NCBI GenBank assembly: GCA_949297415.1
Contig: CASFSV010000007.1
Coordinates: forward strand, 4,932 to 68,931
From: an uncultured Alphaproteobacteria bacterium
Lineage (GTDB): Bacteria; Pseudomonadota; Alphaproteobacteria; RF32; CAG-239
DNA: 64,000 nucleotides
Direction: 5' to 3'
A model generated the notes under the pieces. That model ran no database searches, had not been told where the DNA came from, and was given only the letters and a program-made list of their open reading frames with translations. The first letter of the stretch is position 1, and the number at the start of each line of letters is the position of its first letter. The translations under genes and the position numbers were made by a program. Positions 44,888 through 64,000 of this stretch are shown here, piece after piece.

Positions 44888-44891
44888 AGCG

Positions 44892-46160
44892 ATGAAAGAT
44901 AGTGGAATTGAGTGGATTGGTACTATTCCTGTGAACTGGAAAATTGAAAAAGGAAAATATTGCTTATCATATTTAGAAAAGCCTGTTAAACAAACAGATG
45001 AAGTTATTACTTGTTTCAGAGATGGTGAAGTAACACTTCGTAAAAATCGTAGAGAAGATGGATTTACGATATCTGATAAAGAAATCGGTTATCAGGGTAT
45101 TGATGCCGGGGACTTGGTAGTTCACGGAATGGATGGTTTTGCAGGTGCTATTGGTATTTCTGATTCAAGGGGGAAAGCATCTCCTGTTCTGAATGTTTTG
45201 GATACAAATCAAAACAAAACCTATATAATGTATTACTTGAGAAGTATGGCATATAACGGTGTGTTCCTTGCTTTAACAACTGGTATAAGAGTGAGAACAT
45301 GTGATACAAACTGGAGAAAATTAAAAGAATTGCCTTATCTTTTACCCGACAGAGAAGAACAGGATAAAATTGTTAATTGTATTAATCGGCAAGTATCTCA
45401 AACAAATGAGATAATTTTGGGCATCCAAGAACAGATAACCACATTGGAAGAATACAAGAAATCAGTTATTACCGAAGCTGTTACTAAAGGGCTTAATTCA
45501 AATGCCCCAATGAAAGACAGCGGTATTGAATGGATAGGCAAAATCCCTGCAAATTGGGAAATAAAGAGAACAAAATATCTAGCATCTTCAATAAGTAAAG
45601 GAAATGGTATTACTAAAGAAGATGTAAATAGTGATGGAAATATACAATGCATTAGATATGGAGAAATATACTCAAAGTATAAAAATTGCTTTTTGAATGC
45701 AATATCAGCAACCAATTTGAATAAAATATCCTCTCCAAAATATATATTTAAAGGTGATATATTATTTGCAGGAACAGGAGAATTAGTAGAAGAAATAGGC
45801 AAAAATATTGTTTATTTAGGAGATAAACCTTGTTTAGCAGGTGGAGATATTATCATATTAAGACATCATCAAAATTGTAAATTTTTGAATTATGCACTAT
45901 ACAGTTCTTATGCTCAATTACAAAAAAGTATAGGGAAAGCAAAGTTAAAGGTTGTTCACATATCTTCAACTGACATAGGAAATATATATGTCGCATTACC
46001 ATCTCCGACAGAACAGCAAGAAATTGCAGATTATCTTGATAGTCAATGCTCTCAAGTTGAGGAAGCTATTGCAGACAAACAAAAGCAGATTGAAACGCTT
46101 GAAGAATATAAGAAAACCTTAATTTATGAATATGTTACCGGTAAAAAGGAGGTTGCATAA
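44892..46160 (+). CDS. hsdS: Type I restriction-modification system specificity subunit
   Basis: Two target-recognition halves, each opening with MKDSGIEWIG.IP.NW.I. Conserved spacer helices ITTLEEYKKSVITEAVTKGL and IETLEEYKKTLIYEYVTGK. GTG 44880 is an alternative start. Confidence 0.9.
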   Translation: MKDSGIEWIGTIPVNWKIEKGKYCLSYLEKPVKQTDEVITCFRDGEVTLRKNRREDGFTISDKEIGYQGIDAGDLVVHGMDGFAGAIGISDSRGKASPVLNVLDTNQNKTYIMYYLRSMAYNGVFLALTTGIRVRTCDTNWRKLKELPYLLPDREEQDKIVNCINRQVSQTNEIILGIQEQITTLEEYKKSVITEAVTKGLNSNAPMKDSGIEWIGKIPANWEIKRTKYLASSISKGNGITKEDVNSDGNIQCIRYGEIYSKYKNCFLNAISATNLNKISSPKYIFKGDILFAGTGELVEEIGKNIVYLGDKPCLAGGDIIILRHHQNCKFLNYALYSSYAQLQKSIGKAKLKVVHISSTDIGNIYVALPSPTEQQEIADYLDSQCSQVEEAIADKQKQIETLEEYKKTLIYEYVTGKKEVA

Positions 46161-49132
46161 TGAATATTATCCAATCAGAGAAAGAGTATCAGGCATTTAT
46201 TTTAGATTATTTGCATAAGCAAAATGGTTATGTAATCCGCAAAAATGCTAACTTTGATAGATATAACGCTATGGATAAAGAGTTGTTGTTCAAGTTTTTG
46301 AGCGATACGCAACCAAAGCAAATGGAAACATTAAGAAAAATCTACAAATCTGATTTGGAGAATACCCTTATCAATTATATCAATAGCGAAATAAGCAAAC
46401 CAAAGAGTAGCTTATTATCTGTATTAAAGCACGGTATTGACATTGCAAACAGTGTCCATTTAGATTTTATGTTCACGAAACCTGCAACAAATTTTAATAA
46501 AGAAGCAACCAAGCAGTATGAGCAAAATATCTTCTCGGCAGCTGAAGAAATATGGGCAAATGATAAGGAAAGAGTTGATGTTGTTATCTTCTTAAATGGT
46601 TTTGCGATTATGTCCTTTGAATTAAAGTGCAATCATGCCGGACAATCTTATCAAGATGCTATCTATCAATATCGCACCGAAAGAACACCTACCAATCGCC
46701 TATTCTTATTCAAAAGTGGATGTTTGGTAAATTTTGCCATGGACTTAGAACGGGTCTATATGACTACAAAACTAGAAGGAGAATCGACATTTTTCTTACC
46801 ATTTAATATGGGAAATGGCGAAGGTGTTAATGCTGGTGCAGGAAACCCGATATTGGAAGACAAATATAGCGTTTCATATATGTGGGAAGATGTTTTACAA
46901 AAAGATTCTATTTTGGAGCTTATAAGCAAATTTATTCTCCTTGAAGTAAAAGAAAAAGAAGATGAAAATACAGGAAAGAAATCTATTAAAGAAAACATTA
47001 TCTTTCCAAGATTTCATCAGAGAGATGTATTGCATAAGGTTTTGAATGATGTTAGGGAAAACGGAACATCGCAAAACTATCTCATTCAACACAGTGCTGG
47101 TTCTGGCAAAACCTATTCTATTGCTTGGTTAGCACATCGTTTAGCTTCTCTGCATGATGAACAAAACAAAATTATTTTTGATAATATTGTGATTATTACG
47201 GATAGAATTGTTGTCGATAGACAATTACAAGATGCTGTAAAAAGCATTGAACACAAGTCAGGCGTTATTAGAGTTATGGATGATAAATGCAATTCATCAG
47301 ACCTTGCAACAGCTTTGAAGGGTAATACTAAGATTATTGCAACAACAATTCAAAAATTCCCTTATATTGTCAGCGAAGTTTCTAACTTAAAAAAGAAAAA
47401 GTTTGCCGTTATTATTGATGAAGCACATTCTTCTACGGCAGGTAAAGATATGATAGCCGTATCAAAGACTTTAGGTGCAGGTGAAATTCAGGACGAAGTA
47501 TCTACAGAAGATTTGATTGTAGAAGAAATCAATAAACACGGAAAACAAGTCAACGTTTCAGTATTTGCTTTTACAGCCACCCCAAAACCAACAACTCTGA
47601 ACTTGTTTGGTAGGGTTAATAGTAAGGGACAAAGAGAAGCTTTCCATATCTATTCTATGAAACAGGCCATAGAAGAAGGTTTTATTTTGGATGTTTTACA
47701 AAACTATACCACTTATGACACATATTATCGCTTGAACAAAGAAATTAAAGATGACCCAAAATGTAAAACAAATGCTGCAAAACGACAAATTGCTCGTTTT
47801 GTTGAATTACATGAAACTAACATCGCTCAAAGAATTGAAGTTATTGTGGAGCATTTCAGAACAACTGTTATGCAGGAACTCAATGGCAGAGCAAAGGCTA
47901 TGGTTATTACAGCTTCCAGAGAAGGTGCTGTAAAGTATTGCCAAGCATTTAAGAACTATATAAGCAAAAAGGGATATGAAGGTATTGATGCTTTGGTCGC
48001 ATTCTCAGGCAAAGTTACAATGCGAGAAGATGGAAAAGAATATACAGAAGCAGGAATGAACGGTTTTAGCGAAGACAAATTACCTAAAGAGTTTGAAAAA
48101 GATGATTATAAGGTTTTGTTAGTTGCTAACAAGTATCAAACAGGGTTTGACCAACCAAAACTTTGTGCAATGTATATTTTAAAGACTTTGAAGGGAGTAA
48201 ATGCTGTTCAAACACTATCAAGATTAAACAGAATTTGTCCACCATATAACAAGCAAACCTTCATTTTGGATTTTGTAAACAGTTATAAGGATATGGAGGA
48301 TGCTTTCTCCAAATATTATACTGTTACGCTGCTGTCCAATTCCGTAACACCTAACCAAATTTATGACATTGAAGTAAAAATTGATGGGTTCTGCATTATT
48401 GATCCTTCCGACATTGAAGCTGCAAATGATTTACTCTATAAAGATAATATTACTGCAACAGACAAGAAAAAACTAACATTTATATTCCAAAAGACCAAGA
48501 AATTTATAGAACAAATGGATGATGAAAAGCAAAAAGAATTTGTAACAACCTTAAAAGGTTTTGTCAGATTTTATGAGTTTTTGTTACAAGTTACATGCTT
48601 TGAAGATAAAGAACTCCACAAAAAGTATAATTTTATTACCTGTTTGCTTTCTTACATCAATATTAAACATGCTGGTGGAGGATTTAATTTAGATGGGAAA
48701 ATTCAGGCTATGAACTTTGTTCAGAAGAAGACAGGCGAACACAAGAAGACCAATATCAAATCTAATCCTATTGTTACATTGCCAACTGCAGAAACGCTTG
48801 TTTTGCCGGAAGATAAAGTTCAAAAACTTTCTGAAATAATTGCTCAAATCAATAATATGACTGGTAAAAACTATGACAATGATGTTGCGGTTAAAGCAAT
48901 GCTTCAGATTAGGGACATTATGCTAAAATCGGACAAGTTGAAAACATCAGCCAAGAATAACACAGTAAAAAACTTTGAGTTGGCTTATTTTGATAATGTA
49001 AATGATGCTTTGATTGAAGGATTATCGCAAAACCAAGATTTCTTTACCTTATTGTTAAATAATGATAATATAAAGAAAGAAATTCTCGGTATTTTTGTCG
49101 ATGAAATTTATAATAGTTTAAATAAAGCATAA
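46160..49132 (+). CDS. hsdR: Type I restriction endonuclease subunit R
   Basis: 990 aa with HSAGSGKTYS Walker A, IIDEAHSS DEAH box, QTLSRLNR motif VI and an N-terminal nuclease region. ATG overlaps the hsdS stop (ATAATG). Confidence 0.9.
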   Translation: MNIIQSEKEYQAFILDYLHKQNGYVIRKNANFDRYNAMDKELLFKFLSDTQPKQMETLRKIYKSDLENTLINYINSEISKPKSSLLSVLKHGIDIANSVHLDFMFTKPATNFNKEATKQYEQNIFSAAEEIWANDKERVDVVIFLNGFAIMSFELKCNHAGQSYQDAIYQYRTERTPTNRLFLFKSGCLVNFAMDLERVYMTTKLEGESTFFLPFNMGNGEGVNAGAGNPILEDKYSVSYMWEDVLQKDSILELISKFILLEVKEKEDENTGKKSIKENIIFPRFHQRDVLHKVLNDVRENGTSQNYLIQHSAGSGKTYSIAWLAHRLASLHDEQNKIIFDNIVIITDRIVVDRQLQDAVKSIEHKSGVIRVMDDKCNSSDLATALKGNTKIIATTIQKFPYIVSEVSNLKKKKFAVIIDEAHSSTAGKDMIAVSKTLGAGEIQDEVSTEDLIVEEINKHGKQVNVSVFAFTATPKPTTLNLFGRVNSKGQREAFHIYSMKQAIEEGFILDVLQNYTTYDTYYRLNKEIKDDPKCKTNAAKRQIARFVELHETNIAQRIEVIVEHFRTTVMQELNGRAKAMVITASREGAVKYCQAFKNYISKKGYEGIDALVAFSGKVTMREDGKEYTEAGMNGFSEDKLPKEFEKDDYKVLLVANKYQTGFDQPKLCAMYILKTLKGVNAVQTLSRLNRICPPYNKQTFILDFVNSYKDMEDAFSKYYTVTLLSNSVTPNQIYDIEVKIDGFCIIDPSDIEAANDLLYKDNITATDKKKLTFIFQKTKKFIEQMDDEKQKEFVTTLKGFVRFYEFLLQVTCFEDKELHKKYNFITCLLSYINIKHAGGGFNLDGKIQAMNFVQKKTGEHKKTNIKSNPIVTLPTAETLVLPEDKVQKLSEIIAQINNMTGKNYDNDVAVKAMLQIRDIMLKSDKLKTSAKNNTVKNFELAYFDNVNDALIEGLSQNQDFFTLLLNNDNIKKEILGIFVDEIYNSLNKA

Positions 49133-49166: not shown

Positions 49167-49835
49167 ATGACTAAAGAGCGCGGAATTATATATATTTTAA
49201 CTAACCCAATGTTTCGAGAAGACGTTATCAAAATTGGTATAACTAAAGATTTACCCATGCGATTGAAACAACTTGGTTGCGAAACAGGGGTGCCTTGTCC
49301 GTTTGAATGTTATGTCGCATATGAAATAGATAATTATAAACAAGTAGAAAAGATTATGCATAGCATTTACCGTGGTGTTGAACGGCATACAGATAAAGAA
49401 CATAAGAAAAAAGAGTTCTTTCAAGTACATCCTAGCCGAGCTGATGAAGTTTTATCTCAACTTGCCGAATTGTTAAATGGTAAAAAAGTTATTATTGATA
49501 ATCGTAAAATTTATACTTTGGAACAACAACAGATTCTTGAAGAAAGTACAAAGGCGGCCGAAAAAAATCAAATTGCTAAAAGATTTAAATTTCAAGATTA
49601 TAACATTCCTATAGGAGCTACTTTAATTTTTATTAAAGATGATAAAATTCGTTGCAAAGTTATTGAAGACAACAAGGTCAATTATAATGGAGAAATATTC
49701 AGTTTAAGCCGCCTAACAATGAATTTGATGCAAGAACGAGGTTATTTAGGTAAACATTATAACGGCTATAATTATTGGCTATACAATGATACAATCCTAA
49801 CTGATATGTCTCCATCTACCGAAGAACAAGATTAA
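49167..49835 (+). CDS. GIY-YIG (T5orf172/MUG113-type) domain protein with DUF4357-like C-terminal domain
   Basis: GIIYILTNP...VIKIGIT core and EFFQV. C-terminal FKFQDYNIPIGATLIFIKDD...VNYNGEIFSLSRL. Paralogue at 60372-60977. Confidence 0.65.
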   Translation: MTKERGIIYILTNPMFREDVIKIGITKDLPMRLKQLGCETGVPCPFECYVAYEIDNYKQVEKIMHSIYRGVERHTDKEHKKKEFFQVHPSRADEVLSQLAELLNGKKVIIDNRKIYTLEQQQILEESTKAAEKNQIAKRFKFQDYNIPIGATLIFIKDDKIRCKVIEDNKVNYNGEIFSLSRLTMNLMQERGYLGKHYNGYNYWLYNDTILTDMSPSTEEQD

Positions 49836-51609: not shown

Positions 51610-51801
51610 AGCGGGAAACTGCTTAGGGCGTCAGAAACCCTTGAAAATACTAACAGTCGTGTGCACACGACTTAAAAACTGTGCCGACTTCTTGTCTAAT
51701 GGACGGATGTCGGTGAATAAGGCTCAGCCAAATAAGCCGAGCCGTTTGTTAGTATACGGTTTCTGAACATCCGCCCGCCTTTCAAAGAAAAGCGGGTTTT
51801 T
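51610..51801 (+). promoter_or_regulatory. highly structured ~190-nt leader RNA (candidate riboswitch/attenuator or sRNA) ending in an intrinsic terminator
   Basis: A long interrupted closing helix is formed by GGGCG/CGCCC, UCAGAAACC/GGUUUCUGA and AUACUAACA/UGUUAGUAU. It encloses three hairpins. The terminator CCCGC-13 nt-GCGGG-U5 overlaps the 3' strand of the closing helix. Confidence 0.45.
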
Positions 51802-51822: not shown

Positions 51823-54270
51823 ATGTTTAATCGTATGAAAAATAAACTTTTAATTACAACGGCATTAGTGGCTTTATTTTCTGCCAATAATGCTTTTTCT
51901 CAGGTAAGAGAAGATTTGATTGTAGATTCTCAAACCCCGATCAGCAATCAGGGAATGGACGAAGAACCATATTACTACAAATCAATCAAAGTAGAAAAAG
52001 AAGGCTCATTAAATATTGAAACTTCTAATATCAAAACCGAACAAGATATTACGGTTTTAGGCGGACTGGATTTGAAAAACAGCGTTTTGGAAGCCGGAAA
52101 TGATGCCGATGACCAGCCCAATAACTCCAACATATTGTTGGATGGTGCAACCGTAACCATGAATGATTCGGATTTGGAAGCCAACGGCAACATTACCATT
52201 AAAGATACCAGCTTGAGTTCTGTTTCCACAATCGGAGAGCCGGATAATTATGGAATTTGGGCAGATGGCAATATTACCATTGAAAACAGTAATATTAATT
52301 TGGAAAAAAGCTATATTGATTCTTTCGGTGATATTACCATCGATGGCGGTGTTATCAATATGGCGAATATGGAAATTAACAGTTGGCGCGGAAACTTGAA
52401 TGTAAACGGCGGTGAAATTAATTTCAAAGGTGATGAAGATTCTGAAACACTGCTATATGCCCGCAAGGAGCTGAATATTAACGGTGGCGTTATTAATATG
52501 GGTGGTGCTAAACCTATTATTGATAATATCGCAGATTCTGAACCCGATGCCTATCCGGCGTATGATTTGAATATCAACGGCGGAACAATCAACGTTACTG
52601 GTAAACAGGCTGAAATTTCCAGCAGCAAAAACGTTAACATTAACGGCGGTACAATCAATATTGCCGAAGGCAGCACTCTGGGAATCTATGGCGGAAACGA
52701 TCAAACGCCGACAACGGCTCAGCTTGGTTCCGCAGCAATTTTGAATATTGCCGGAACATTGGACACCAGCCTGAACGGCAACGGAACGCTTAACTTTAAT
52801 TCAAACAGCGGAAAGATTACCGGCAATGTCAATATGACAAGCGGCGGCGTTATGAACGTCGGGTTGAATAATGCGGTTATTGACGGCGATGCAACATTTA
52901 ATTCTGGTTCAACGCTGAAGCTGGAAATTGCCGACGGCGGTAACGGTTCTCTGCAAGCAGCAAACATTACCGGCAAAGAAGGATCCAAACTGGCGCTGAA
53001 CATTACCAAGAAAATGGAAATAGGCCAGACTTTGGAAGATGTGGCTTTGTTGAAAGGCAATGTAGACAATCACTTTACCAATGAGATTTCCAATAACCGT
53101 TATAAGGTAACCTCGGAAGACGGTAAGAATTTTGACATTACCTATGAAAATTCGGCTTCTGATGTCGTGGCAGACGCCGGCGGTTCAGCTAACAATGCCC
53201 AAACAGCTGAAGCTTGGGATACGTTGGGACAATCATCAACAGCAAGCGACAATGCCAAAGCGGTTGCTTCGGTCTTAAACGATTTGTCGCAGAATAACGA
53301 ACAGGCTTATGTTGACGCGTTGACGGCTGTTGCACCTGAAGTTGCACCGATGGTACAGAAAACCCAAACCGAAACTGCAAATCGGGTATTCGGAGCAGTC
53401 AGCACACGCTTGACCGGCGGGTCAATCTCAACCGGCGGTGAAGGTATGTCTTCCGGCGATAACATTTTTGAACGTGCAGCCGTGTGGGTTCAGGGAATGT
53501 TTAACAAATCCAAGCTGGACGATACATCCAAAGCCAAAGGTTTTGACGCAGATTCTGCAGGTGTCACATTCGGTGCCGAGAAGTTTGTAACTGATGATAC
53601 GAAGGTTGGTATTGGTTACGCTTACACCAATACGGATATTGACGGCTTTATGAGAAGCACAGACGTTGATACGCACACGGCAATTTTGTACGGTGAATAC
53701 AAACCAAGCAACTGGTATGTAAACGGTATTGCAACATACGGCTGGTCTGATTACTCCGAAGACAAGAGTGTTGCCGGCGTTGGCGTCAAAGCTGACTATG
53801 ATGTTGAAACCTTTGGTTTACAGGCTATGACCGGTTATGACATGAATGTTAATGGTTTAGGCTTCACGCCCGAGGTTGGATTGCGTTATGTCCACATCAA
53901 ACAGGACGCTTACAAAGATTCTGCCGACCAGAAAGTCTCCGGAAACGACAGCGATATCCTGACCGGCGTTATCGGAGCAAAAGTCAGCAAGTCTTGGGAA
54001 TTGTCTAACGGTATGAACATCAAGCCGGAAGCCCGTATTGCCGCAACTTATGACCTGTTTAACGATGATGTTAATTCAGTCGTAACTCTGGCCAACGGTT
54101 CGGCTTATGCGGTCGAAGGCGAAGCTCTTGACCGTTTCGGTATGGAATTCGGTGCCGGCGTAACTGCGGAAGTTAACGACAACGTTGAGCTTTCGCTTGG
54201 TTATGAAGGTAAATTCCGTGAGGATTACCAAGACCACACTGGCTTAATTAACGCTAAATATAAGTTTTAG
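51823..54270 (+). CDS. autotransporter (type Va) outer membrane protein
   Basis: Signal peptide MKNKLLITTALVALFSANNAFS (alternative start 51835). Passenger has repeated (L/V)NINGG(V/T)IN beta-helix units. C-terminal ~270-aa beta-barrel ends in ...INAKYKF. Confidence 0.85.
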   Translation: MFNRMKNKLLITTALVALFSANNAFSQVREDLIVDSQTPISNQGMDEEPYYYKSIKVEKEGSLNIETSNIKTEQDITVLGGLDLKNSVLEAGNDADDQPNNSNILLDGATVTMNDSDLEANGNITIKDTSLSSVSTIGEPDNYGIWADGNITIENSNINLEKSYIDSFGDITIDGGVINMANMEINSWRGNLNVNGGEINFKGDEDSETLLYARKELNINGGVINMGGAKPIIDNIADSEPDAYPAYDLNINGGTINVTGKQAEISSSKNVNINGGTINIAEGSTLGIYGGNDQTPTTAQLGSAAILNIAGTLDTSLNGNGTLNFNSNSGKITGNVNMTSGGVMNVGLNNAVIDGDATFNSGSTLKLEIADGGNGSLQAANITGKEGSKLALNITKKMEIGQTLEDVALLKGNVDNHFTNEISNNRYKVTSEDGKNFDITYENSASDVVADAGGSANNAQTAEAWDTLGQSSTASDNAKAVASVLNDLSQNNEQAYVDALTAVAPEVAPMVQKTQTETANRVFGAVSTRLTGGSISTGGEGMSSGDNIFERAAVWVQGMFNKSKLDDTSKAKGFDADSAGVTFGAEKFVTDDTKVGIGYAYTNTDIDGFMRSTDVDTHTAILYGEYKPSNWYVNGIATYGWSDYSEDKSVAGVGVKADYDVETFGLQAMTGYDMNVNGLGFTPEVGLRYVHIKQDAYKDSADQKVSGNDSDILTGVIGAKVSKSWELSNGMNIKPEARIAATYDLFNDDVNSVVTLANGSAYAVEGEALDRFGMEFGAGVTAEVNDNVELSLGYEGKFREDYQDHTGLINAKYKF

Positions 54271-54952: not shown

Positions 54953-55119
54953 ATTGACTGTGCATTTGTTTTAATTATGGCTTGATAGAATATATAATAC
55001 TCTCCTTGCAATAAAACACCTATATCTTCTTAGCTTACCCAACCTTTTTTAAAATATTCGTTAACTTGTTTTATTAATCCGTCAATACTTACGTCATAAA
55101 GAATATTATATTTCATTGG

Positions 55120-55893
55120 TTATATAAAACGCCAAAGATTTACACCTAAAAGCGCTAATAAAGTTAATAAAGCAAACAACCCACCAAAGCAAATTCCAAA
55201 TAGAAATTCAATAATTCCAATTTCTTTATCTTTACAGATTGATAATAAGGACTTTGCTACAAACGCAAAAAAAGATGCCGGAACAAAACATTCAAATAAG
55301 TATCCTGGAACAACAATAAATCCACGAACAACAAGAATGGCTGCTAAAATTGAAAGAATAATCATTATCCCTTCTGAAACGTTAAATTTATCAGAAGCCA
55401 CTATTTTATTTTTGTGATTTATTAATAGCTTGGTTCTTTTTTCTACTTCATTTATTTTATATACTAAATAAATCCCTATTTCTCCATCTGCTAAGTCTTT
55501 AATATTTTCCCAATTAATTAAATTTATAGCCGGAACAATATTTTTATTAATGGAACATTCTGTTGGAATAATTTCAGGAGGTCTTTTATTATTACTATTA
55601 ATTGGAGCTATACCATTATACATAAAATTACCATTCATTATTTGATTTTCAATAAATGATGTTTTATTCCAATCAATTTCTATGTCATTGTTAGATTTAT
55701 TTTCAATATTAATATTAAAGAAGATATTATTTTTAATACTGAAAACAATATCAACATTTTCATCAGAATATTTTGCTACCTGCGAATCTATATCATTTAA
55801 GAATTCCTCTCGTTTCTGATTAAATTCTTCTTCTGTAATAACGCCCTTTTCTTTTAGTTCGTTAAGTTTTTCTAATTCCTCTGCCGTAATCAT
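55120..55893 (-). CDS. N-terminal SHOCT-like domain protein with C-terminal multi-TM region
   Basis: AEELEKLNELKEKGVITEEEFNQKREEFL matches the SHOCT pattern. The C-terminal ~85 aa form 3-4 hydrophobic helices. GAGGTG RBS. Third gene of the cassette. Confidence 0.6.
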   Translation of the reverse strand: MITAEELEKLNELKEKGVITEEEFNQKREEFLNDIDSQVAKYSDENVDIVFSIKNNIFFNINIENKSNNDIEIDWNKTSFIENQIMNGNFMYNGIAPINSNNKRPPEIIPTECSINKNIVPAINLINWENIKDLADGEIGIYLVYKINEVEKRTKLLINHKNKIVASDKFNVSEGIMIILSILAAILVVRGFIVVPGYLFECFVPASFFAFVAKSLLSICKDKEIGIIEFLFGICFGGLFALLTLLALLGVNLWRFI

Positions 55894-55908
55894 TTTTTAC
55901 ACCTCAAA

Positions 55909-56337
55909 TTACAAATTATTTTCAATATAATTAAATATCTTATTTGTAATTTTTTTCTTTTCTCCCCAGTCAAAAGCTTGAAAGGAAATACATTTACCAA
56001 ATATAGAAACAGATGTAGATTGTTTTGATTTTGAGATTTGAATTAACATTGTTTGACCATACGATAACCAAGTCTTAGGTGTATCAAACATAATGATTCC
56101 TTTGTTTTTATTTGAATTGGAGATTGTATAATCAAATTCTTTTATTGCATTTTGAGCCGAATTAAATATTTTATCATAATCAGCATTAAATAACCTTTCT
56201 CCTTGTTTAGGAAGCTGAATATCTATAACATCCGATTCAATATTTAAAAGCTGTTTCTTTTTTTCGTTAAATTGATCTTCTGTAATAATACCTTTTTCTT
56301 TTAATTCAAACAATTTTTCAAGTTCCTGTGTATCCAT
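55909..56337 (-). CDS. N-terminal SHOCT-like domain protein (soluble)
   Basis: TQELEKLFELKEKGIITEDQFNEKKKQLL followed by an unknown ~105-aa domain. Second gene of the cassette. Confidence 0.6.
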   Translation of the reverse strand: MDTQELEKLFELKEKGIITEDQFNEKKKQLLNIESDVIDIQLPKQGERLFNADYDKIFNSAQNAIKEFDYTISNSNKNKGIIMFDTPKTWLSYGQTMLIQISKSKQSTSVSIFGKCISFQAFDWGEKKKITNKIFNYIENNL

Positions 56338-56365
56338 AATTTTAACCTTTCATAAGAAATTAAAC

Positions 56366-56809
56366 CTAATTTATCTCCGCCAATTCAATTACCATAACAC
56401 CTTTATTTTTTGCTCTTTTACAAACATCAAAAGCTCTGCCTTTTAGCTGGTTATAGGCAATGATAAAATCCGTATTTTCTATTATCCAATTATTGCGGTG
56501 GACAATGCACCAACGTTTATATCCGATAGCGGCTCGGTCAGGATATATGAAACTATCAAAATATCTTTCCCCGTCATTAACCTCTTTCATACCGGATGCA
56601 ACAAAGACTATCCGGATGCCGGGATTGTTTTGTTTTATTTGCAAAACGGCATTATAAGCATCTCGCTCATAAGCACCTTTTGAACCGACATAAAAAGTAT
56701 CTACACCTTCTTCGGCAATAAGCTGAAGAGCTTGCTCTTTTACTTTTTCTATAATGTCATCTCTTCTCCACTTATAATCGTTTCCAAAAAAGGCACAGGA
56801 TTTACTCAT
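56366..56809 (-). CDS. SLOG-fold protein, DUF1273/YpsA-like
   Basis: CAFFGNDY..., EGVDTFYVGSKGAYERDAYNAVLQIKQNNPGIRIVFV and HRNNWIIENTDFIIAYNQLKGRAFDVCKRAKNKGVMVIEL follow the DUF1273 pattern (Rossmann-like; GxxG-type loop; RN..mvd.sD.liavy). Start set at ATG 56809. Confidence 0.55.
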   Translation of the reverse strand: MSKSCAFFGNDYKWRRDDIIEKVKEQALQLIAEEGVDTFYVGSKGAYERDAYNAVLQIKQNNPGIRIVFVASGMKEVNDGERYFDSFIYPDRAAIGYKRWCIVHRNNWIIENTDFIIAYNQLKGRAFDVCKRAKNKGVMVIELAEIN

Positions 56810-57093
56810 TTGAATTTCTTTCAAAATAGAGGTGTTTTTTATACGATACACAAACCAACGATTATGTTCCTGTCTGCTTTTATCTATTTGAAAGAAATTA
56901 TTTTTCTTTTATCAAGCTCCTTGAAAACCTTAGTTTTCCTGACATTTATGCCCATTATATATTTTTGAAGCGGGCGGAAGAAAATAAAACGAATAACCAT
57001 ACAAAAGGGTTGATTTTATCGTTCATTAAAAATGCCCTTCTATTTTATCTCAACTCTTTGAATCTCCGATAAATATGTAAAAAGGGGAAAAAG

Positions 57094-57699
57094 ATGTCGG
57101 TTATTGCATATATAAGGAAAAGTACGGATAAACAGTCATTTGAACATCAGGAATATGAAATTGAACAATACGCAGAAAAGCACAACCTTAAAATAGATAG
57201 ATGGGTTGAAGAAAGCATTTCCAGTCGGAAAGAACTTAAAAAACGACAATTAGGAAAATTGCTGGAAGAGCTACAAGACGGAGATATTTTGATAGCAACT
57301 GAAATTTCAAGACTTGGAAGGTCATTACTTGAAGTAATGGGAATTTTACAAACTTGTTTAGAGAAAAATTGTCAGGTATGGACTATTAAAGAATCATATA
57401 ACCTGAAAAATGATTTGCAATCGCAACTACTTGCCGTTGTATTTTCTATAGGAGTAAGCATTGAGCGTTCTTTGCTTTCACAAAGAACAAAAACAGCATT
57501 AGATGCTAAAAAAGCCGCGGGAATTAAACTAGGTCGTCCTTTCGGAGCAGAAAGCAAAAAACTAAAATTATCAAAAAATACCAAAAGAATAAGAGATTTA
57601 TTGGATAAGAAAGTTCCCAAAGCCCAAATTGCCAGAATAATGGGGGTACAAAAAATAACTTTAAGACGATTTATCAAACGTATGGGATGGAGTGATTAA
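57094..57699 (+). CDS. small serine recombinase (resolvase/invertase family)
   Basis: VIAYIRKSTDKQS catalytic Ser context, ISRLGRS, and C-terminal HTH KAQIARIMGVQKITLRRFIKR. Confidence 0.85.
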   Translation: MSVIAYIRKSTDKQSFEHQEYEIEQYAEKHNLKIDRWVEESISSRKELKKRQLGKLLEELQDGDILIATEISRLGRSLLEVMGILQTCLEKNCQVWTIKESYNLKNDLQSQLLAVVFSIGVSIERSLLSQRTKTALDAKKAAGIKLGRPFGAESKKLKLSKNTKRIRDLLDKKVPKAQIARIMGVQKITLRRFIKRMGWSD

Positions 57700-57727: not shown

Positions 57728-58033
57728 TTATTTTATACAGGATTTTATAGCGGAAACAGCTTCGCAAAGACGACCGGCCGCATAAAGAAGTTTGTTATAA
57801 TCTGAATGTTGATTGGCTTTAGTAAAAAATAGCTGAATAAGATGATTTTCCAGCATTTCACATTGTTTAGCAACATTTTGCAGCTGTTTATTTAAGCCGT
57901 CATCATCTTCCTGTAAAATCTGATAACCGGTGATTTTGTTATGGTTTTGCGAAAGAAAGTCGTCAAATTCCGCCTCATCGGCAAAGTTTTTATATCCCCT
58001 GCGGCTAGTTATTGTTTCAATCAATACCTTCAT
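57728..58033 (-). CDS. hypothetical protein
   Basis: 101-aa ORF. No family recognised. Confidence 0.45.
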   Translation of the reverse strand: MKVLIETITSRRGYKNFADEAEFDDFLSQNHNKITGYQILQEDDDGLNKQLQNVAKQCEMLENHLIQLFFTKANQHSDYNKLLYAAGRLCEAVSAIKSCIK

Positions 58034-60371: not shown

Positions 60372-60977
60372 TTAGAACTTATCCGGTAAATCTTTGAGTT
60401 TTGTTCCGTTATACTCAAAATAAGCCGCACCTTGATACGCCCCACTTTTATTCGCTTCACTGCGATTTTCAAATAAATGTCGCACTAGCGGAGACAATTT
60501 CCAAATGTGTCCTTTGTATTCTACCTCTCTTTCCCCGACAACTTTGGCTTTTTCATTTTTGTCTTTAATAAAAGTGACTTTATCTCCGTTTTTGAGTCCT
60601 TTGGCATAGAAATTAAATCTGTTGTTTTGTTCGTTCGTCTTTGCCAAAGCTGTAAATTCTTTCTCACGGTCTTTTACCTGAGGGTAGATGATTTCTCCTT
60701 CAAATGCCGTCAATAAGCGCGTAACCAGTTCGGAATCCAAGGCAAACAGTTCACTTTGTCCCAGTCTTTGTTTAGAAAAGATATCTTGTAACAACCTTTC
60801 TTTTTCCTGATAATCTGAAACTTTGATGGCAAATACTCTTTTAAGTCCGACAACATTATAATAGCCATTCATTTCCAAATAGCGCATCCGTTCAGGATAT
60901 TGCTTTTCCTGAGTAATACCGATTTTAATCAAATCCGGAACAGCTGTTGTCATGATATAAAGTATTCCTGTCGCCAT
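60372..60977 (-). CDS. GIY-YIG (T5orf172/MUG113-type) domain protein with DUF4357-like C-terminal domain
   Basis: GILYIMTTAVPDLIKIGIT...SELFAL and C-terminal FNFYAKGLKNGDKVTFIKDK...VEYKGHIWKLSPL. Same architecture as 49167-49835. Confidence 0.65.
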   Translation of the reverse strand: MATGILYIMTTAVPDLIKIGITQEKQYPERMRYLEMNGYYNVVGLKRVFAIKVSDYQEKERLLQDIFSKQRLGQSELFALDSELVTRLLTAFEGEIIYPQVKDREKEFTALAKTNEQNNRFNFYAKGLKNGDKVTFIKDKNEKAKVVGEREVEYKGHIWKLSPLVRHLFENRSEANKSGAYQGAAYFEYNGTKLKDLPDKF

Positions 60978-61216
60978 TTTAGTTCCTTTCCCAGAAATTA
61001 GCTTATTAAGTTAAGATTACTTTATCAGAAATTATAAAAACGTTAAAAATATGGTAAAATAATTAAATTTTAATGTTTAATAATTATGATTTTAAAATTT
61101 CAAATAAAATCCTAGATAATTCTAACTATATCAAAACAACATTTAAAAACGTGTATTTTTTAACATTTTTGAAGATTTTTTGTTAATTATGTGTTTTATT
61201 GTATATAGGGAGATTT

Positions 61217-61930
61217 ATGGTGATTGATATTGTTACAAATCAAATTATAGATAATTCTGAGCACACCTATGAGAAAAATAATGTTACATTTATTGGTGTA
61301 CGTATTCAAGATATTGAAAGTTATGCCAATAAAATGAAGTTTCAAATTTTAGATACAAGTTGGATTGCTCAAATGTCGCCCTTAAATCAGCAATCTTATT
61401 CAGCAAGAGCTAACGAAACTATAAAAAGTTTAGTCAATAATGTATTGAATGAAGTCAAAAATTCAGTAACAGCGGAATTTGGTGAAATCCTGATATCAAT
61501 GTCAGCTCAAGATGCTCTGAGTATAACACAAGATCACCATATACTTCCTTTATCTGAACTTTGGAAAACTAGAGTTAGAGGAAATGATAGTTTCGATTTT
61601 CATACTGAAACAAAAGAATGCTATATAGTTTTTGGTGAAGCAAAGTACCAGACCAATAAAACATCCTACAATACAGCATTAAAACAGGTAGTGAGATTTA
61701 TAAACCTTCGAAAAGATGATATGGATCTCGCTGATTTAATGAATTTGGTTACAGCCAAAACTAAATCTACATTTGAAACATATGGTGCTTTAAAATCATA
61801 TGCGGCAGCATTTTCTGTAAAAAATTTAAATAATAAAAAACTTATTAAACAAATAAAAGAAAATAAATTTTTTAAGCAACTGATGAGACAATATAAATTA
61901 TATTTGATTGGAATTGAAATATGTCAATAA
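61217..61930 (+). CDS. hamA: HamA-like (DUF1837) protein, Hachiman-type defence system component
   Basis: 237 aa, ATG 61217 after GGGAG. PD-(D/E)xK-like DSFDFH...VFGEAKYQ. Overlaps by 10 nt the start of an SF2 helicase gene, the arrangement characteristic of Hachiman. Confidence 0.55.
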   Translation: MVIDIVTNQIIDNSEHTYEKNNVTFIGVRIQDIESYANKMKFQILDTSWIAQMSPLNQQSYSARANETIKSLVNNVLNEVKNSVTAEFGEILISMSAQDALSITQDHHILPLSELWKTRVRGNDSFDFHTETKECYIVFGEAKYQTNKTSYNTALKQVVRFINLRKDDMDLADLMNLVTAKTKSTFETYGALKSYAAAFSVKNLNNKKLIKQIKENKFFKQLMRQYKLYLIGIEICQ

Positions 61931-64000
61931 AAAATATATTTTCTGAGAAATGTGATATAAATAGAGAACTAAATAGTATATTGAATGAGATTCATACTAA
62001 CGGTCCTATAAATGCGTATAATCTTGAAAAACTAGCATATATAAAAAAATATTATCCAGATAATTTTAACAAAATAGAACATGAATTAATGTATTTATTA
62101 GGGTTGTTTTATAAAACTACAACACCTAAGAGTCTTGTGGAAATTTTTTACAAAATATACCAAGATCATATACAAGAAGAAACTGGAAGCATTTTGACTC
62201 CTGTTCAAGCAAATGCTTTTAATTTAATAAAATCTTATAAATATTTTTCTTTTTCAGCGCCAACAAGTATTGGAAAATCTTATCTCTTTAGAAAAATGAT
62301 AAAAACTTCAAGCAAGGACATTGTAATAATTGTACCTTCAAGAGCTTTGTTGACAGAATATATATTGGAAATTCAAAATGAGGTTCCCAAAGACGTATTG
62401 GTTTTGCAATTTGTCGATTTAATAAATAAAAAGCATACAAAACGTCACATTTTTGTATTAACCCCAGAAAGGACCTCTGATTTATTTAAATATGTAAACC
62501 ATTTGAATGTTGAGTTTTTTCTATTTGATGAAGCTCAAATATCTGAAGAAAGTTTGAGAGGAATACGTTTCGATGCATTAGTTAGAAGAGTGGATAAGAT
62601 TTTTTCTTCATCGAAAATTGTATTTGCACATCCTTTTGTGAATAATCCAGAAGCTCAACTCTCTAAACATCGCTTTATATCTGATGCTATATCTCAAAAT
62701 TATCATCAACAAGCTGTTGGAAAAATATATATAAAATATGATGATGATAATAATTTTGAATATTTTTCTCCAAATGAAGATATAAAAGGTATCATTAAAC
62801 CTGAAAAAAACTTAATTTCACAGATATTAAATAATAATGGAACAATATTGATTTATATTGCAAAGGAAAAAATATATTCTGGAGAATATTTAATTAAATA
62901 TAAAGATATAATAAAAAATTGTCCTGAAATAACAAACCAAGAAGCACTGAATTTAATTGCTGAATTACATGATTATATTGGGGGTTCCAACAAAAGAAAT
63001 GCTATACAATATTCTTCATTGATAGATATGATGAAAAAAGGAATAGTTATTCATCACGGTTCAATACCTTTGTATGGCCGTTTACTCATTGAAAGGTTTA
63101 TAAATAAAGGATTTGCTAAACTGTGTTTTTCTACATCAACTTTAATGTATGGTATAAATTTACCATTTGATATTGTGTGGATTGACTATTTTCATTTTGA
63201 CGGAAATAAAAATGAAAAAATATTAAAATTAAAAAATCTGATAGGTAGAGCCGGTCGCAGCTCTCTTAAAAAGAATAAATTTGATTTTGGATATGTTTTT
63301 ATACATAAAAAGAATATAAAAACTTTTAACAACCGTTTAAATGATGCAGCAAATTTATCAACAACTTCATTACTAGATATTTCTGATAATAAACACTCTG
63401 AAGATGATTTAGATTTGATCAATGCAATTAGAAACAATACTTTTGATCCGTATTCTCAGTTACCCCAAGCACAAATTGATAGAATAAAAAAAGATGAACA
63501 GTTAAATGAGAAAATACGATATATACTGGATGTTTTATTAAAAAATGGTACTTTAACAGCTGAAGAATATTATAAATTATCTAATACTGATAAGGATCTA
63601 TTGAAATCATATATAGCAGACATTTTTTCAAGTCATTTAAGAAGAGATAGCTTAACACCGGCAGAAAAAAGCGTGTTAAGCACGGCAATTCCCATTATGC
63701 TGTGGAGAATACAAGGTCGTTCATTTAAGCACATTGTTTCAATGAGGTATGCTTATGTAACAAACCAAAAAGAACGTAGAGATATTGAAAATAAGTATAA
63801 AAATGAACTAATAAGTGCGACTGAAATGTACGAACGACTAAAAGAAGTCCCATTAAAATATACTCAAATTGCAGCAACTTTGCCCAATAAAACATTAAAA
63901 AAGAATAACTTATTTAATTATGGGAAATTACCAGATTTTAGATATGACATTTTAATGTATGATACATATGATTATCTTGATAAAGTTATTTCTTTTTCTC
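61921..64000 (+). CDS. hamB: HamB-like SF2 (DExx-box) helicase, 3' end beyond window
   Basis: Not in the ORF track (no stop in the window). I translated frame 1 from ATG 61921 to 63999 without a stop. Walker A SAPTSIGKS, Walker B LFDEAQ, motif VI LIGRAGRS. Confidence 0.6.
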   Translation, partial: MSIKNIFSEKCDINRELNSILNEIHTNGPINAYNLEKLAYIKKYYPDNFNKIEHELMYLLGLFYKTTTPKSLVEIFYKIYQDHIQEETGSILTPVQANAFNLIKSYKYFSFSAPTSIGKSYLFRKMIKTSSKDIVIIVPSRALLTEYILEIQNEVPKDVLVLQFVDLINKKHTKRHIFVLTPERTSDLFKYVNHLNVEFFLFDEAQISEESLRGIRFDALVRRVDKIFSSSKIVFAHPFVNNPEAQLSKHRFISDAISQNYHQQAVGKIYIKYDDDNNFEYFSPNEDIKGIIKPEKNLISQILNNNGTILIYIAKEKIYSGEYLIKYKDIIKNCPEITNQEALNLIAELHDYIGGSNKRNAIQYSSLIDMMKKGIVIHHGSIPLYGRLLIERFINKGFAKLCFSTSTLMYGINLPFDIVWIDYFHFDGNKNEKILKLKNLIGRAGRSSLKKNKFDFGYVFIHKKNIKTFNNRLNDAANLSTTSLLDISDNKHSEDDLDLINAIRNNTFDPYSQLPQAQIDRIKKDEQLNEKIRYILDVLLKNGTLTAEEYYKLSNTDKDLLKSYIADIFSSHLRRDSLTPAEKSVLSTAIPIMLWRIQGRSFKHIVSMRYAYVTNQKERRDIENKYKNELISATEMYERLKEVPLKYTQIAATLPNKTLKKNNLFNYGKLPDFRYDILMYDTYDYLDKVISFS

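What the first reader, a model, noticed from the sequence alone, without database searches (positions are those of the whole stretch)
55120..56809. AT-rich SLOG (DUF1273/YpsA-like) + SHOCT + SHOCT-transmembrane three-gene cassette beside a resolvase: candidate undescribed defence/abortive-infection module
Three co-directional genes with 15-28 nt gaps and their own RBSs. Sampled GC is about 23-28%, against 45-50% in the flanking island backbone.
- Gene 1 has the DUF1273 SLOG pattern. SLOG is a nucleotide or ADP-ribose-derivative binding fold that recurs in conflict systems.
- Genes 2 and 3 both open with a near-identical SHOCT-like helix pair (ELEKL.ELKEKG(I/V)ITE(D/E)(Q/E)FN.K). SHOCT is normally C-terminal; here it is N-terminal in both, which suggests the two proteins co-assemble.
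- Gene 3 ends in 3-4 TM helices, a plausible membrane-disrupting effector.

The cassette lies in a defence island between a Type I R-M system and a Hachiman-like pair, next to a small serine recombinase in the same AT-rich block. This sensor, adaptor and membrane-effector architecture does not correspond to any named defence system I can recall.
Basis: partly seen in the sequence, partly recalled or inferred. Interest (0 to 1): 0.75.

Follow-up and report, generated by a model that had tools for sequence, protein, structure and literature searches.

The report
Invertase-switched SLOG-led cargo operon
The three genes are real, but they are the output of a flip-flop DNA switch run by the neighbouring recombinase: a conserved SLOG "leader" gene followed by a swappable cargo slot that elsewhere holds BREX, Lamassu and restriction systems and here holds two unknown SHOCT proteins, one of them membrane-bound.

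Summary
There are three co-directional minus-strand genes with 28- and 15-nt gaps. Gene 2 and gene 3 are AT-rich (22-30% GC). Gene 1 has a YpsA/SLOG fold. Genes 2 and 3 each start with a SHOCT domain. Gene 3 ends in three long TM helices. PADLOC matches none of them, and a Type I R-M system and a Hachiman pair flank the region.

The proposed sensor-adaptor-effector triad is not supported.
- The conserved unit across about 60 loci from uncultured gut and rumen Alphaproteobacteria is the small serine DNA invertase (57094-57699), a 155-bp invertible segment, and gene 1.
- The segment lies between arms at 56857-56862 and 57018-57023 and carries a TATATAAT box.
- Both orientations occur in independent metagenome assemblies of sister lineages. 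The window copy has the box facing gene 1, which I call ON.
- Genes downstream of gene 1 vary between loci: Type I, IIG and ISP R-M, BREX, Lamassu, McrB-like genes, ankyrin proteins, arrays of small SHOCT membrane proteins, or nothing.
- The g2-g3 pair recurs only in near relatives. g3's core occurs elsewhere without g1 or g2.

About 18 other loci replace the invertase and switch with a covarying ~235-nt RNA leader that is absent from Rfam.

Verdict: a phase-variable, SLOG-led defence hot spot, a new variant of a known kind. A defence role for g2/g3 is plausible only by association.

The parts
57094..57699 (+). Small serine recombinase (201 aa), Hin/Mpi-type DNA invertase, transcribed divergently from g1.
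   Evidence: Pfam Resolvase, 1.3e-30. NCBIfam 'master DNA invertase Mpi family', 252 bits against a cutoff of 272. PHROG 'DNA invertase', 5e-39. Found about 285 bp upstream of g1, divergent, in about 25 of 45 species-level loci.
57018..57023 (.). Recombinase-proximal arm of the switch. It reads ATCGTT on the + strand, and GAACGAT followed by AAAATCAACC on the g1 strand.
   Evidence: The inversion boundary is mapped to this hexamer by comparing L007 with L008.
56863..57017 (.). 155-bp invertible segment.
   Evidence: The homologous segment is reverse-complemented between otherwise identical flanks in L008, L010 and L062 compared with L007, L009, L011 and L012. In L065 the interior is 89% identical to the window's interior but inverted.
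56954..56961 (-). TATATAAT, a -10-like box inside the invertible segment. In this window it faces g1, which I call the ON orientation.
   Evidence: The same octamer directly precedes the structured leader in class-2 g1 loci. That it acts as a promoter is inferred, not shown.
56857..56862 (.). g1-proximal arm of the switch. It reads AACGAT on the + strand, and ATCGTT followed by GGTTTGTGTATC on the g1 strand.
   Evidence: It is unique in the window (0.01 matches expected by chance).
56366..56809 (-). g1: 147-aa YpsA-like SLOG protein, the conserved leader gene directly downstream of the switch.
   Evidence: It is present in all related loci and is followed by variable cargo.
55909..56337 (-). 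g2: 142-aa soluble protein with an N-terminal SHOCT domain and an uncharacterised ~100-aa domain. Cargo gene 1.
   Evidence: Pfam SHOCT, 33.2 bits. No predicted TM segment. Orthologues at 91-94% identity in L001 and L058. No PDB, PADLOC or NCBIfam match.
55120..55893 (-). g3: 257-aa membrane protein. Residues 1-35 are SHOCT, 39-160 a beta-sandwich domain with a DIEIDWNKT...FM signature, and 172-256 three TM helices. Cargo gene 2.
55813..55896 (.). 84-nt SHOCT-coding direct repeat, copy 1 (5' end of g3). Copy 2 is at 56260-56343 (5' end of g2). The copies are 73% identical.
   Evidence: family D1. In L001 and L004 the cargo breakpoints fall just after SHOCT-coding segments.
57728..58033 (-). 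101-aa ORF lying tail-to-tail with the invertase. It is a conserved neighbour in the window clade, and at 39% identity in L024 and L025. Function unknown and membership of the module uncertain.
   Evidence: cluster c9. No family or PDB match.

Best explanation
The cassette is the expressed arm of a phase-variable (ON/OFF) switch inside a defence island of an uncultured gut alphaproteobacterium.

Shown by comparison with related loci:
- A small Hin/Mpi-type serine invertase (57094-57699) inverts a 155-bp segment (56863-57017) bounded by short inverted arms, AACGAT and ATCGTT.
- g1, a YpsA-like SLOG protein, is the conserved first gene after the switch in every related locus.
- The position after g1 is a cargo slot that turns over between strains and species. 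Its contents are often complete defence systems.

Inferred:
- The segment carries a TATATAAT promoter element. In the window's orientation it faces g1, so g1, g2 and g3 are transcribed as one unit with 28- and 15-nt gaps.
- In the opposite orientation the promoter faces the invertase gene, and the operon is silent.

In this window the cargo is two AT-rich, recently acquired SHOCT proteins. One is soluble (g2). The other (g3) has a beta-sandwich domain and three TM helices. The most likely reading of the pair is a membrane-associated complex tethered by SHOCT helices. Its role is either phage exclusion or abortive infection, or envelope variation. Defence is favoured only by guilt by association.

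g1 most likely binds or processes a nucleotide or NAD-derived ligand, as SLOG proteins generally do. Its function is tied to the switch and island rather than to any particular cargo. Its expression is always gated, either by DNA inversion or, in about 18 other loci, by a ~235-nt structured RNA leader.
For: Inversion:
- blastn of the window against L007-L012 shows that the 145-bp spacer segment is inverted in L008 and L010 only.
- Alignment A1 places the boundaries at GAACAAT and ATTGTTGG.
- The predicted OFF-state junction was found in four further metagenome contigs. L062 matches the L008 type, L064 is another lineage, and L065's interior is 89% identical to the window's interior but inverted.
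- The arms sit at fixed positions (about -215 and -53 from the g1 ATG) in about 30 class-1 loci.

Recombinase type.

Promoter:
- A TATATAAT or TATATAAT-like box faces g1 in the window and in most class-1 loci.
- The same octamer precedes the RNA leader in class-2 loci.

Generality of the module:
- A second recombinase with its own switch, immediately upstream of brxA-brxB-brxC, is captured in both orientations in two MAGs.
- Its 132-bp interior is 100% identical as a reverse complement, between 14-bp perfect arms.
- A TTGCAA-N16-TATGAT promoter faces brxA only in L040.

g1 as a conserved leader with variable cargo.

Cargo identities:
- Type I R-M, MmeI-type IIG R-M with AIPR, Type ISP R-M, BrxC, an EVE-McrB-like protein, Schlafen/AlbA_2, an autotransporter and ankyrin proteins.
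- BrxA/B/C and LmuA/LmuB.

g1 fold.

g2/g3 features.

Alternative gating by RNA:
- 36 predicted pairs, of which 17 show changes on both sides.
- 97.6% of cells are paired, against 23-45% when the partners are slid.
- G-U pairs are strand-specific.
- The leader is found in 18 loci, always directly 5' of g1.
Against: - Both orientations were not observed in the window's own lineage. The window, L001-L006 and L058 are all in the ON orientation.
- The window's arms share only a 6-bp perfect core.
- The two arms do not match at every position in some lineages, for example L017, L029 and L031.
- Promoter activity and co-transcription of g1-g2-g3 are inferred from sequence only. The generic sigma-70 scan found no canonical -35/-10 pair in the spacer.
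- Some loci have gaps of 100-350 nt between g1 and the cargo, so co-transcription is not universal.
- Non-defence cargo (ankyrin proteins, an autotransporter) and g1-only loci show that the slot is not exclusively for defence.
- A distant g3 relative sits with envelope proteins.
- No biochemical function can be assigned to g1, g2 or g3.
Confidence: 0.78

Rival explanations
1. g1 (SLOG sensor), g2 (SHOCT adaptor) and g3 (SHOCT-TM effector) form a self-contained, undescribed three-component abortive-infection system. The recombinase is incidental.
For: - The genes are tightly spaced and co-directional.
- Both partners carry SHOCT.
- g3 has TM helices.
- The setting is a defence island.
- The triad is syntenic in L058.
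- There is no PADLOC hit, so it would be new.
Against: - g1 occurs in about 57 loci with unrelated cargo or none. SHOCT genes follow it only in the window clade and in L020-L022, and there with different SHOCT proteins.
- Close relatives with g1 98% identical have a different set: a 113-aa TM-SHOCT protein, g2, and only a 34-codon remnant of g3. L004 has lost most of g2 as well.
- The g3 core occurs without g1, g2 or SHOCT.
- g1 is 32-38% GC while g2 and g3 are 22-30% GC, which suggests separate origins.
Confidence: 0.1
2. g1 is only a conserved backbone gene flanking an integration hot spot of a genomic island. g2 and g3 are envelope or surface-variation proteins like the neighbouring ankyrin and autotransporter genes, not immunity genes. 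The switch serves surface or antigenic phase variation.
For: - The island backbone is conserved around the module: tyrosine integrase, DUF3768, ankyrin protein, the 101-aa ORF, invertase and g1.
- Cargo includes ankyrin proteins and autotransporters.
- g3's beta-sandwich domain family consists mainly of lipoproteins.
- The distant g3 homologue is in an operon with a signal-peptide Skp/OmpH-like protein and a lipoprotein.
- Invertible promoters classically control surface structures (PMC13139388).
Against: - At least 9 of about 20 distinct cargo types are recognised defence systems.
- g1 expression is itself gated, by the switch or by the RNA leader, even where no cargo follows. That argues for a g1 function linked to the control element rather than passive flanking.
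- g3 lacks a signal peptide, so its beta-sandwich domain and SHOCT are predicted to be cytoplasmic.
Confidence: 0.3
3. The orientation differences are assembly artefacts, and the recombinase is a transposon or integron-type resolvase with no role in regulating the cassette.
For: - The repeats are short, in AT-rich DNA.
- One contig (L063) is a palindromic chimera.
Against: - Each orientation recurs in several independent samples and assemblers, with base-precise boundaries at the inverted arms and identical flanks.
- A second, unrelated-arm switch upstream of BREX shows a 100% reverse-complement interior between two MAGs.
- There are no attC-like or transposon terminal repeats.
- The best family matches are DNA invertases.
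Confidence: 0.03

Closest known systems
Bacteroides fragilis Mpi invertase with invertible capsular-polysaccharide promoters and UpxY/UpxZ leader genes
   Same: - A small serine invertase that scores best against the Mpi family.
- A short invertible promoter segment between inverted repeats.
- A conserved leader gene directly after the switch, followed by variable multi-gene cargo.
- Several such loci per genome (PMC13139388 for Mpi and the CPS promoters; the UpxY/UpxZ comparison is from my own knowledge).
   Different: - The host is a gut alphaproteobacterium, not a member of the Bacteroidales.
- The invertase is encoded next to each switch rather than acting as one global master.
- The leader is a SLOG/YpsA protein, not a NusG-like antiterminator.
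- The cargo is mostly anti-phage systems rather than polysaccharide synthesis genes.
- The arms are different sequences: (G/C)AAC(A/G)WT here.
- The recombinase scores 252 bits, below the family cutoff of 272.
Hin/Gin/Cin-type DNA invertase switches, such as Salmonella hin-fljBA
   Same: - A ~200-aa serine recombinase with a C-terminal HTH.
- Inversion of a promoter-bearing segment next to the recombinase gene, giving ON/OFF expression of a downstream operon.
   Different: - Here the invertase gene lies outside the invertible segment.
- The segment is only 155 bp.
- No enhancer or Fis dependence can be assessed.
YpsA/YoqJ (DUF1273) clade of the SLOG superfamily (Burroughs et al. 2015; Brzozowski et al. 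2019, PMC6459960)
   Same: - The fold matches (2NX2, TM 0.76).
- g1 is a stand-alone single-domain protein.
- It is associated with conflict-system neighbourhoods.
   Different: - Only 13% identical to YpsA.
- Below the Pfam cutoff.
- There is no gpsB or PRTase neighbour.
- It is always preceded by an invertible switch or a structured RNA leader. I found neither context in the literature searched.
Defence hot spots of mobile elements, such as the P2/P4 hot spots and integrative islands
   Same: Conserved flanking genes surround a slot in which BREX, Lamassu, R-M and unknown genes replace each other between strains.
   Different: Here the slot lies downstream of a programmed ON/OFF switch and a conserved co-oriented leader gene. 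The element was not found on viral contigs.
SHOCT-domain proteins (PF09851; PMC3581485, PMC11237479)
   Same: A bihelical SHOCT module is fused to TM segments or small globular domains. Its proposed role is tethering or assembly at the inner face of the membrane.
   Different: The partner domains are uncharacterised: g2's C-terminal domain, and g3's DWNKT beta-sandwich. They are arranged as tandem paralogous cassettes behind g1.

Membership tests
SLOG superfamily, YpsA/DUF1273 clade (g1) | Match to the PF06908 profile at or above the gathering score | tested here: not met
   g1 scores 14.3 bits against a cutoff of 27.7, E=0.041. About 20 homologues at 46-55% identity carry precomputed PF06908 hits, so membership is transitive.
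SLOG superfamily, YpsA/DUF1273 clade (g1) | Rossmannoid SLOG fold superimposable on YpsA | tested here: met
   AF2 model with pLDDT 88 and pTM 0.85. Top Foldseek PDB hit is 2NX2 (YpsA): E 9e-6, probability 1.0, TMq 0.76. LOG-like 1rcu and 2iz7 are also hit.
SLOG superfamily, YpsA/DUF1273 clade (g1) | Conserved glycine-rich loop with an acidic residue (the GxD/E motif discussed in PMC6459960) | tested here: inconclusive
   The alignment has near-invariant G42, G45, Y47, E48 and D50 (VGxKGxYExDAY). No residue-level alignment to YpsA was made.
SHOCT domain (g2, g3) | Match to PF09851 at or above the gathering score, forming a two-helix module | tested here: met
   33.2 and 33.7 bits against a cutoff of 27. 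The g3 model has helices at 4-15 and 21-35.
Mpi-family master DNA invertase (NF009949) | Score at or above the NCBIfam equivalog cutoff | tested here: not met
   252.2 bits against a cutoff of 272, full length. It is Mpi-like but should not be filed as an Mpi equivalog.
Mpi-family master DNA invertase (NF009949) | Acts in trans on many promoter switches across the genome | not testable with these tools
   Only one copy of the arms is present in the 64-kb window. The genome is not available. In related MAGs each switch usually has its own adjacent invertase.
Invertible promoter (inverton) with a cognate serine invertase | Segment bounded by inverted repeats next to a site-specific recombinase gene | tested here: met
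   Arms at 56857-56862 and 57018-57023. The invertase starts 70 bp from the nearer arm.
Invertible promoter (inverton) with a cognate serine invertase | Both orientations observed in natural populations, with identical flanks | tested here: met
   Met for sister lineages: L007, L009, L011 and L012 against L008, L010 and L062; also L064 and L065. Only the ON orientation was seen for the window's own lineage.
Invertible promoter (inverton) with a cognate serine invertase | A functional promoter inside the segment | not testable with these tools
   A TATATAAT box faces g1, and the same box precedes class-2 leaders. There are no transcription data. The generic scan found no canonical -35/-10 pair.
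Named anti-phage defence systems (PADLOC-DB v2) | HMM match of any component | tested here: not met
   No hit for g1, g2 or g3 at E<=1. Neighbouring cargo in other loci does match BREX and Lamassu.
Integron-like cassette array | IntI-type tyrosine integrase, attI/attC recombination sites and promoterless cassettes | tested here: not met
   The adjacent recombinase is a serine invertase. No attC-like imperfect palindromes or repeated cassette boundaries were found.

The most novel reading that the evidence does not exclude
Gut and rumen Alphaproteobacteria carry a dedicated, previously undescribed expression platform for immune genes. It consists of a YpsA-like SLOG protein that is always the first product of a gated transcription unit. 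The gate is either an invertase-driven promoter flip or a new ~235-nt riboswitch-like RNA that senses a nucleotide or NAD-derived signal. The SLOG protein would actively enable or license the swappable defence cargo behind it, for example by buffering self-toxicity when R-M or BREX systems switch on, or by feeding back on the switch. Under this reading the g2-g3 SHOCT pair would be a new membrane-acting anti-phage system.
Probability: 0.2. Interest if true: 0.85.

Novelty: new variant of a known kind. Interest (0 to 1): 0.62.

Why it matters
Phase-variable promoters are well studied for surface structures in Bacteroides. Here the same logic is wired to a hot spot that exchanges whole immune systems (BREX, Lamassu, and Type I, IIG and ISP R-M) in an uncultured, poorly known gut lineage.

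If confirmed, three things follow:
- Individual cells would stochastically switch costly or autoimmune defence systems on and off. This bears on how defence cost, phage pressure and horizontal gene uptake are balanced in the gut.
- The conserved position behind g1 can be used as bait to discover new defence genes. The SHOCT pair in this window and several unannotated cargo genes are candidates.
- The consistent pairing of a YpsA-like SLOG protein with two alternative gates gives a concrete experimental handle on a protein family whose biochemical role remains unknown. One of those gates is an RNA leader absent from Rfam 15.

Tried and rejected
- **Invertible-promoter repeats by generic repeat search.** The true arms are too short (6-7 bp perfect) to stand out. 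They were found only by comparing loci.
- **16-nt inverted repeat bracketing the cassette (55013-55028 / 56823-56838, I24).** One arm lies in the conserved g1 5' UTR. No second line of evidence was found, so I treat it as chance.
- **Integron-like cassette capture.** Rejected: the recombinase is a serine invertase and there are no attC-like sites.
- **Class-2 inverted repeats as a second kind of DNA switch.** Rejected in favour of an RNA structure. The reasons are several nested helices, strand-specific G-U pairs and covariation.
- **Rfam.** Gathering and permissive scans gave no family for the class-2 leader.
- **Sequence searches of g1, g2 and the 101-aa ORF against PDB.** Nothing significant.
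- **PHROGs.** For g1-g3 only the SHOCT helices match.
- **Viral contigs.** No g1 relatives.
- **Plasmids.** One distant 'SLOG family protein'.
- **Fold search of g3.** Only generic Ig-like beta-sandwich matches with TM<=0.28 over the full length. No functional inference was drawn.
- **Generic sigma-70 scan of the spacer.** No canonical promoter was found.
- **Literature.** Searches for this architecture, and for any RNA motif tied to DUF1273, found nothing specific.
Full report
**1. Observation**

The three minus-strand ORFs exist as described:
- g1 runs 56366-56851. Its conserved start is the ATG at 56809, giving 147 aa.
- g2 runs 55909-56337 (142 aa).
- g3 runs 55120-55893 (257 aa).

The gaps are 28 and 15 nt. 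GC falls to 0.22-0.30 over g2 and g3 and is 0.32-0.38 over g1. The flanks are at 0.38-0.49.

SHOCT (PF09851) is above the Pfam cutoff at the N-terminus of both g2 and g3. The two SHOCT-coding 5' ends form an 84-nt direct repeat, 73% identical.

g1 is below the PF06908 cutoff (14 bits). However, 69 relatives were found, and many at about 50% identity carry PF06908. An AlphaFold model built on their alignment (pLDDT 88) has B. subtilis YpsA (2NX2) as its top structural match, with TM 0.76 and probability 1.0.

g3 ends in three long hydrophobic helices.

PADLOC, NCBIfam and PHROGs give nothing for g1-g3 beyond the SHOCT helices.

The stated context is correct:
- Type I R-M at 42103-49132.
- HamB with a weak HamA-like ORF from 61199 to the window end.
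- A serine recombinase at 57094-57699.

**2. Host**

Relatives of g1 come almost entirely from uncultured gut and rumen Alphaproteobacteria MAGs. Some MAGs have two to four copies. None is on IMG/VR viral contigs, and only one distant relative is on a plasmid.

**3. The conserved unit is invertase, switch and g1, not the triad**

Contexts of g1 orthologues, a tblastn map of 57 loci and gene clustering show the following.
- The small serine recombinase lies divergently about 285 bp upstream of g1 in about 25 of 45 species-level loci.
- What follows g1 is hypervariable.

The recombinase scores best against NCBIfam 'master DNA invertase Mpi family' (252 bits, cutoff 272) and PHROG 'DNA invertase'.

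**4. The spacer contains an invertible segment**

blastn of the window against L007-L012 showed that the roughly 145-bp stretch matching 56879-57023 is inverted in L008 and L010 only. The alignment places the breakpoints at GAACAAT and ATTGTTGG, with identical flanks.

In the window the arms are AACGAT (56857-56862) and ATCGTT (57018-57023). They enclose 155 bp and are unique in the window.

Across about 30 class-1 loci the arms sit at about -215 and -53 from the g1 ATG. Their consensus is (G/C)AAC(A/G)WT, extending to 13 bp perfect in L024. The A/G position usually agrees between the two arms of a locus, but not always; L017 is an exception.

I predicted the OFF-state right junction and searched metagenomes for it. 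Four contigs carry it.
- L062 matches the L008 type.
- L064 is another lineage.
- L065 has an interior 89% identical to the window's but inverted, with collinear flanks.
- L063 is a palindromic chimera.

All copies of the window's own lineage (window, L001-L006, L058) are in one orientation.

**5. Promoter and direction (inferred)**

The segment carries TATATAAT (minus strand, 56961 to 56954) facing g1. Most class-1 loci have the same or a near-identical box in the same place and direction. The identical octamer directly precedes the RNA leader of class-2 loci.

I therefore call the window ON. In the OFF state the box faces the invertase gene, which may give orientation-dependent invertase expression; that is speculation. 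The generic sigma-70 scan found no canonical -35/-10 pair, so promoter function is not demonstrated.

**6. The module is general**

A second recombinase with its own switch lies directly upstream of brxA-brxB-brxC in L040 and L042.
- The 132-bp interior between 14-bp perfect arms (TAAATCACCATTTA and TAAATGGTGATTTA) is 100% identical as a reverse complement between the two MAGs.
- Only L040 presents TTGCAA-N16-TATGAT toward brxA.

In L024 and L025, 11-bp arms lie between a second recombinase and an autotransporter gene.

**7. Cargo behind g1**

Pfam and PADLOC identify the following cargo.

| Cargo | Loci |
|---|---|
| HsdM/HsdS or HsdM-S-R | L033, L036, L049, L057 |
| HsdR | L035, L043 |
| MmeI-type IIG R-M with AIPR | L029 |
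| Type ISP R-M | L031 |
| BrxA/B/C | L040, L042 |
| LmuA/LmuB | L045 |
| EVE-AAA_5 McrB-like protein | L046 |
| Schlafen/AlbA_2 | L043 |
| GHKL ATPase | L044 |
| DEAD/RecQ-like helicase | L032 |
| Autotransporter | L024, L025 |
| 500-786-aa ankyrin proteins with three small genes | L007-L016, L019 |
| Arrays of small SHOCT membrane proteins | L001-L005, L020-L022 |

In several loci nothing follows g1 on the same strand. The slot is thus a defence-rich hot spot, but not exclusively a defence one.

**8. g2 and g3**

The g1-g2-g3 order recurs only in L058, where g3 is 85% identical and the Ank and autotransporter flank is the same.

In relatives whose g1 is 98% identical:
- g1 is followed by a 113-aa TM protein with a C-terminal SHOCT, then a g2 orthologue (91%), then only the first 34 codons of g3.
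- L004 retains just about 43 codons of g2 before an opposite-strand IIG R-M gene.

Breakpoints therefore fall right after SHOCT-coding segments.

A sensitive HMMER search shows that g3 residues ~58-160 belong to a widespread family with no Pfam model (~290 clusters). Nearly all members are small lipoproteins with a D(I/L)E(I/L)DWNKT...GGFM(F/Y)(E/D)G signature. The AF2 model (pLDDT 81) shows a beta-sandwich with only generic Ig-like matches.

A 45%-identical g3 relative lacks SHOCT. It sits behind another invertase with a Skp/OmpH-like secreted protein, a TM protein and a lipoprotein, without g1 or g2.

SHOCT at N-termini is documented, and the domain is proposed to tether proteins at the inner membrane face (PMC3581485, PMC11237479).

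Nothing identifies g3 as a pore-former. A defence function for g2/g3 rests on association only.

**9. Alternative gate**

About 18 g1 loci lack the invertase. They have instead a conserved ~235-nt element after a TATATAAT box.
- RNAalifold predicts six helices.
- 17 of 36 pairs change on both sides.
- 97.6% of cells are paired, against 23-45% when the partners are slid.
- None of 500 shuffles reaches the observed covariation score or the observed percentage of paired cells.
- G-U pairs are strand-specific.

The element is absent from Rfam 15. By nhmmer it occurs only directly 5' of g1.

Its 3' half weakly resembles an element at window 51696-51784, just upstream of the autotransporter gene. 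That element is a sub-threshold match to sRNA-Xcc1 (32 bits against 53). sRNA-Xcc1 is reported upstream of mobile cargo genes such as symE (10.1101/2025.06.18.660453).

**10. Interpretation**

Shown:
- The inversion (in sister lineages).
- The invertase adjacency.
- The conservation of g1 as leader.
- The cargo turnover.
- The identity of many cargoes.

Inferred:
- Promoter location and the ON state.
- Co-transcription of g1-g2-g3.
- Any function for g1, g2 or g3.

g1 is always gated and is sometimes the only gene gated. Its function is therefore probably linked to the switch and island rather than to a specific cargo. By family, a nucleotide or NAD-derivative binding or processing role is the default (PMC6459960).

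**11. Novelty**

Invertible promoters, Mpi and phase-variable phage resistance are known (PMC13139388, PMC9881135). I found no description of any of the following:
- an invertase-switch-SLOG-leader platform feeding a defence hot spot;
- the RNA leader;
- gut Alphaproteobacteria using such a platform.

I rate this a new variant of a known kind. The specific claim of a three-part defence system is not supported.

Noticed in passing
L026, L027, L028, L032, L034, L035, L037, L038, L039, L041, L043, L046, L047, L048, L050, L053, L055 and L056; about 260 nt directly 5' of g1 (for example L046:5745-6002): A ~235-nt structured RNA leader follows a TATATAAT box and replaces the invertase and switch in front of g1. 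It has six helices. 17 of 36 pairs show compensatory changes, and 97.6% of cells are paired against 23-45% in slid controls. It has no Rfam family. It is a candidate new cis-regulatory or riboswitch-like RNA.
   Followed up: partly
window 51696-51784 (+), just upstream of the autotransporter gene 51823-54270; the same position in L058: A sub-threshold, full-length match to Rfam sRNA-Xcc1 (RF02221): 32 bits against a gathering score of 53, E 7e-4. nhmmer also links it to the 3' half of the class-2 g1 leader (E 8e-5). This may be a shared leader module for island cargo genes.
   Followed up: partly
L040:7175-7334 and L042, same position: A complete BREX operon (brxA, brxB, brxC) lies behind a second invertase and a 132-bp segment between 14-bp perfect inverted arms. 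The segment is captured in opposite orientations in two MAGs (100% identity as a reverse complement). A TTGCAA-N16-TATGAT promoter faces brxA only in L040. This indicates phase-variable BREX.
   Followed up: yes
L024 and L025, about 7160-7310: 11-bp inverted arms (ATAAATGACCA and TGGTCATTTAT, about 127 bp apart) lie between a second invertase and a 1013-aa autotransporter gene. This is a likely further switch. Only one orientation was seen.
   Followed up: partly
window 61199-64000 (+): A Hachiman-like pair. A HamB helicase ORF runs off the window end (PADLOC E 3e-48). It is preceded by a 243-aa ORF with only a weak HamA match (E 0.0026). The region is 22-30% GC.
   Followed up: partly
window 49167-49835 (+) and 60372-60977 (-): Two T5orf172/MUG113 genes match the PADLOC candidate system PDC-S57 (E 4e-58 and 3e-52). 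They bracket the island segment that holds the switch. A Schlafen/AlbA_2 protein (40508-42013) matches PDC-S50.
   Followed up: no
window 44243-44887 (+): A 214-aa ORF with no Pfam or PADLOC match sits between hsdM (42103-44232) and hsdS (44859-46160) of the Type I R-M system.
   Followed up: no
g3 residues ~58-160; proteins P0110-P0354: A widespread family with no Pfam model (about 160-290 clusters) of small lipoproteins sharing a beta-sandwich domain with a DIEIDWNKT...GGFMFEG signature. One 4174-aa protein (P0113) carries 17 repeats, and some members are fused to PDZ domains.
   Followed up: partly
L001:7324-7425 and L004:6886-7008: Truncated remnants of g3 (34 codons) and g2 (about 43 codons) end just after their SHOCT-coding segments. 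This suggests that cargo is exchanged or deleted by recombination at, or right after, the repeated SHOCT-coding DNA.
   Followed up: partly
L063 (whole contig, 2838 bp): A palindromic chimeric contig whose two ends are the same g1-proximal flank in opposite orientations around the invertible segment. This kind of assembly artefact is expected where both switch states coexist in a sample.
   Followed up: no
window 55013-55028 and 56823-56838: A 16-nt inverted repeat (88% complementary) brackets g1-g3. One arm lies in the conserved g1 5' UTR. No supporting evidence was found, so it is probably chance.
   Followed up: partly
L037:6898-6984 and L050:6900-6986 (-): A tRNA gene lies directly downstream of g1 in two class-2 loci. 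This suggests that the g1 module sits at the edge of a tRNA-integrated island.
   Followed up: no
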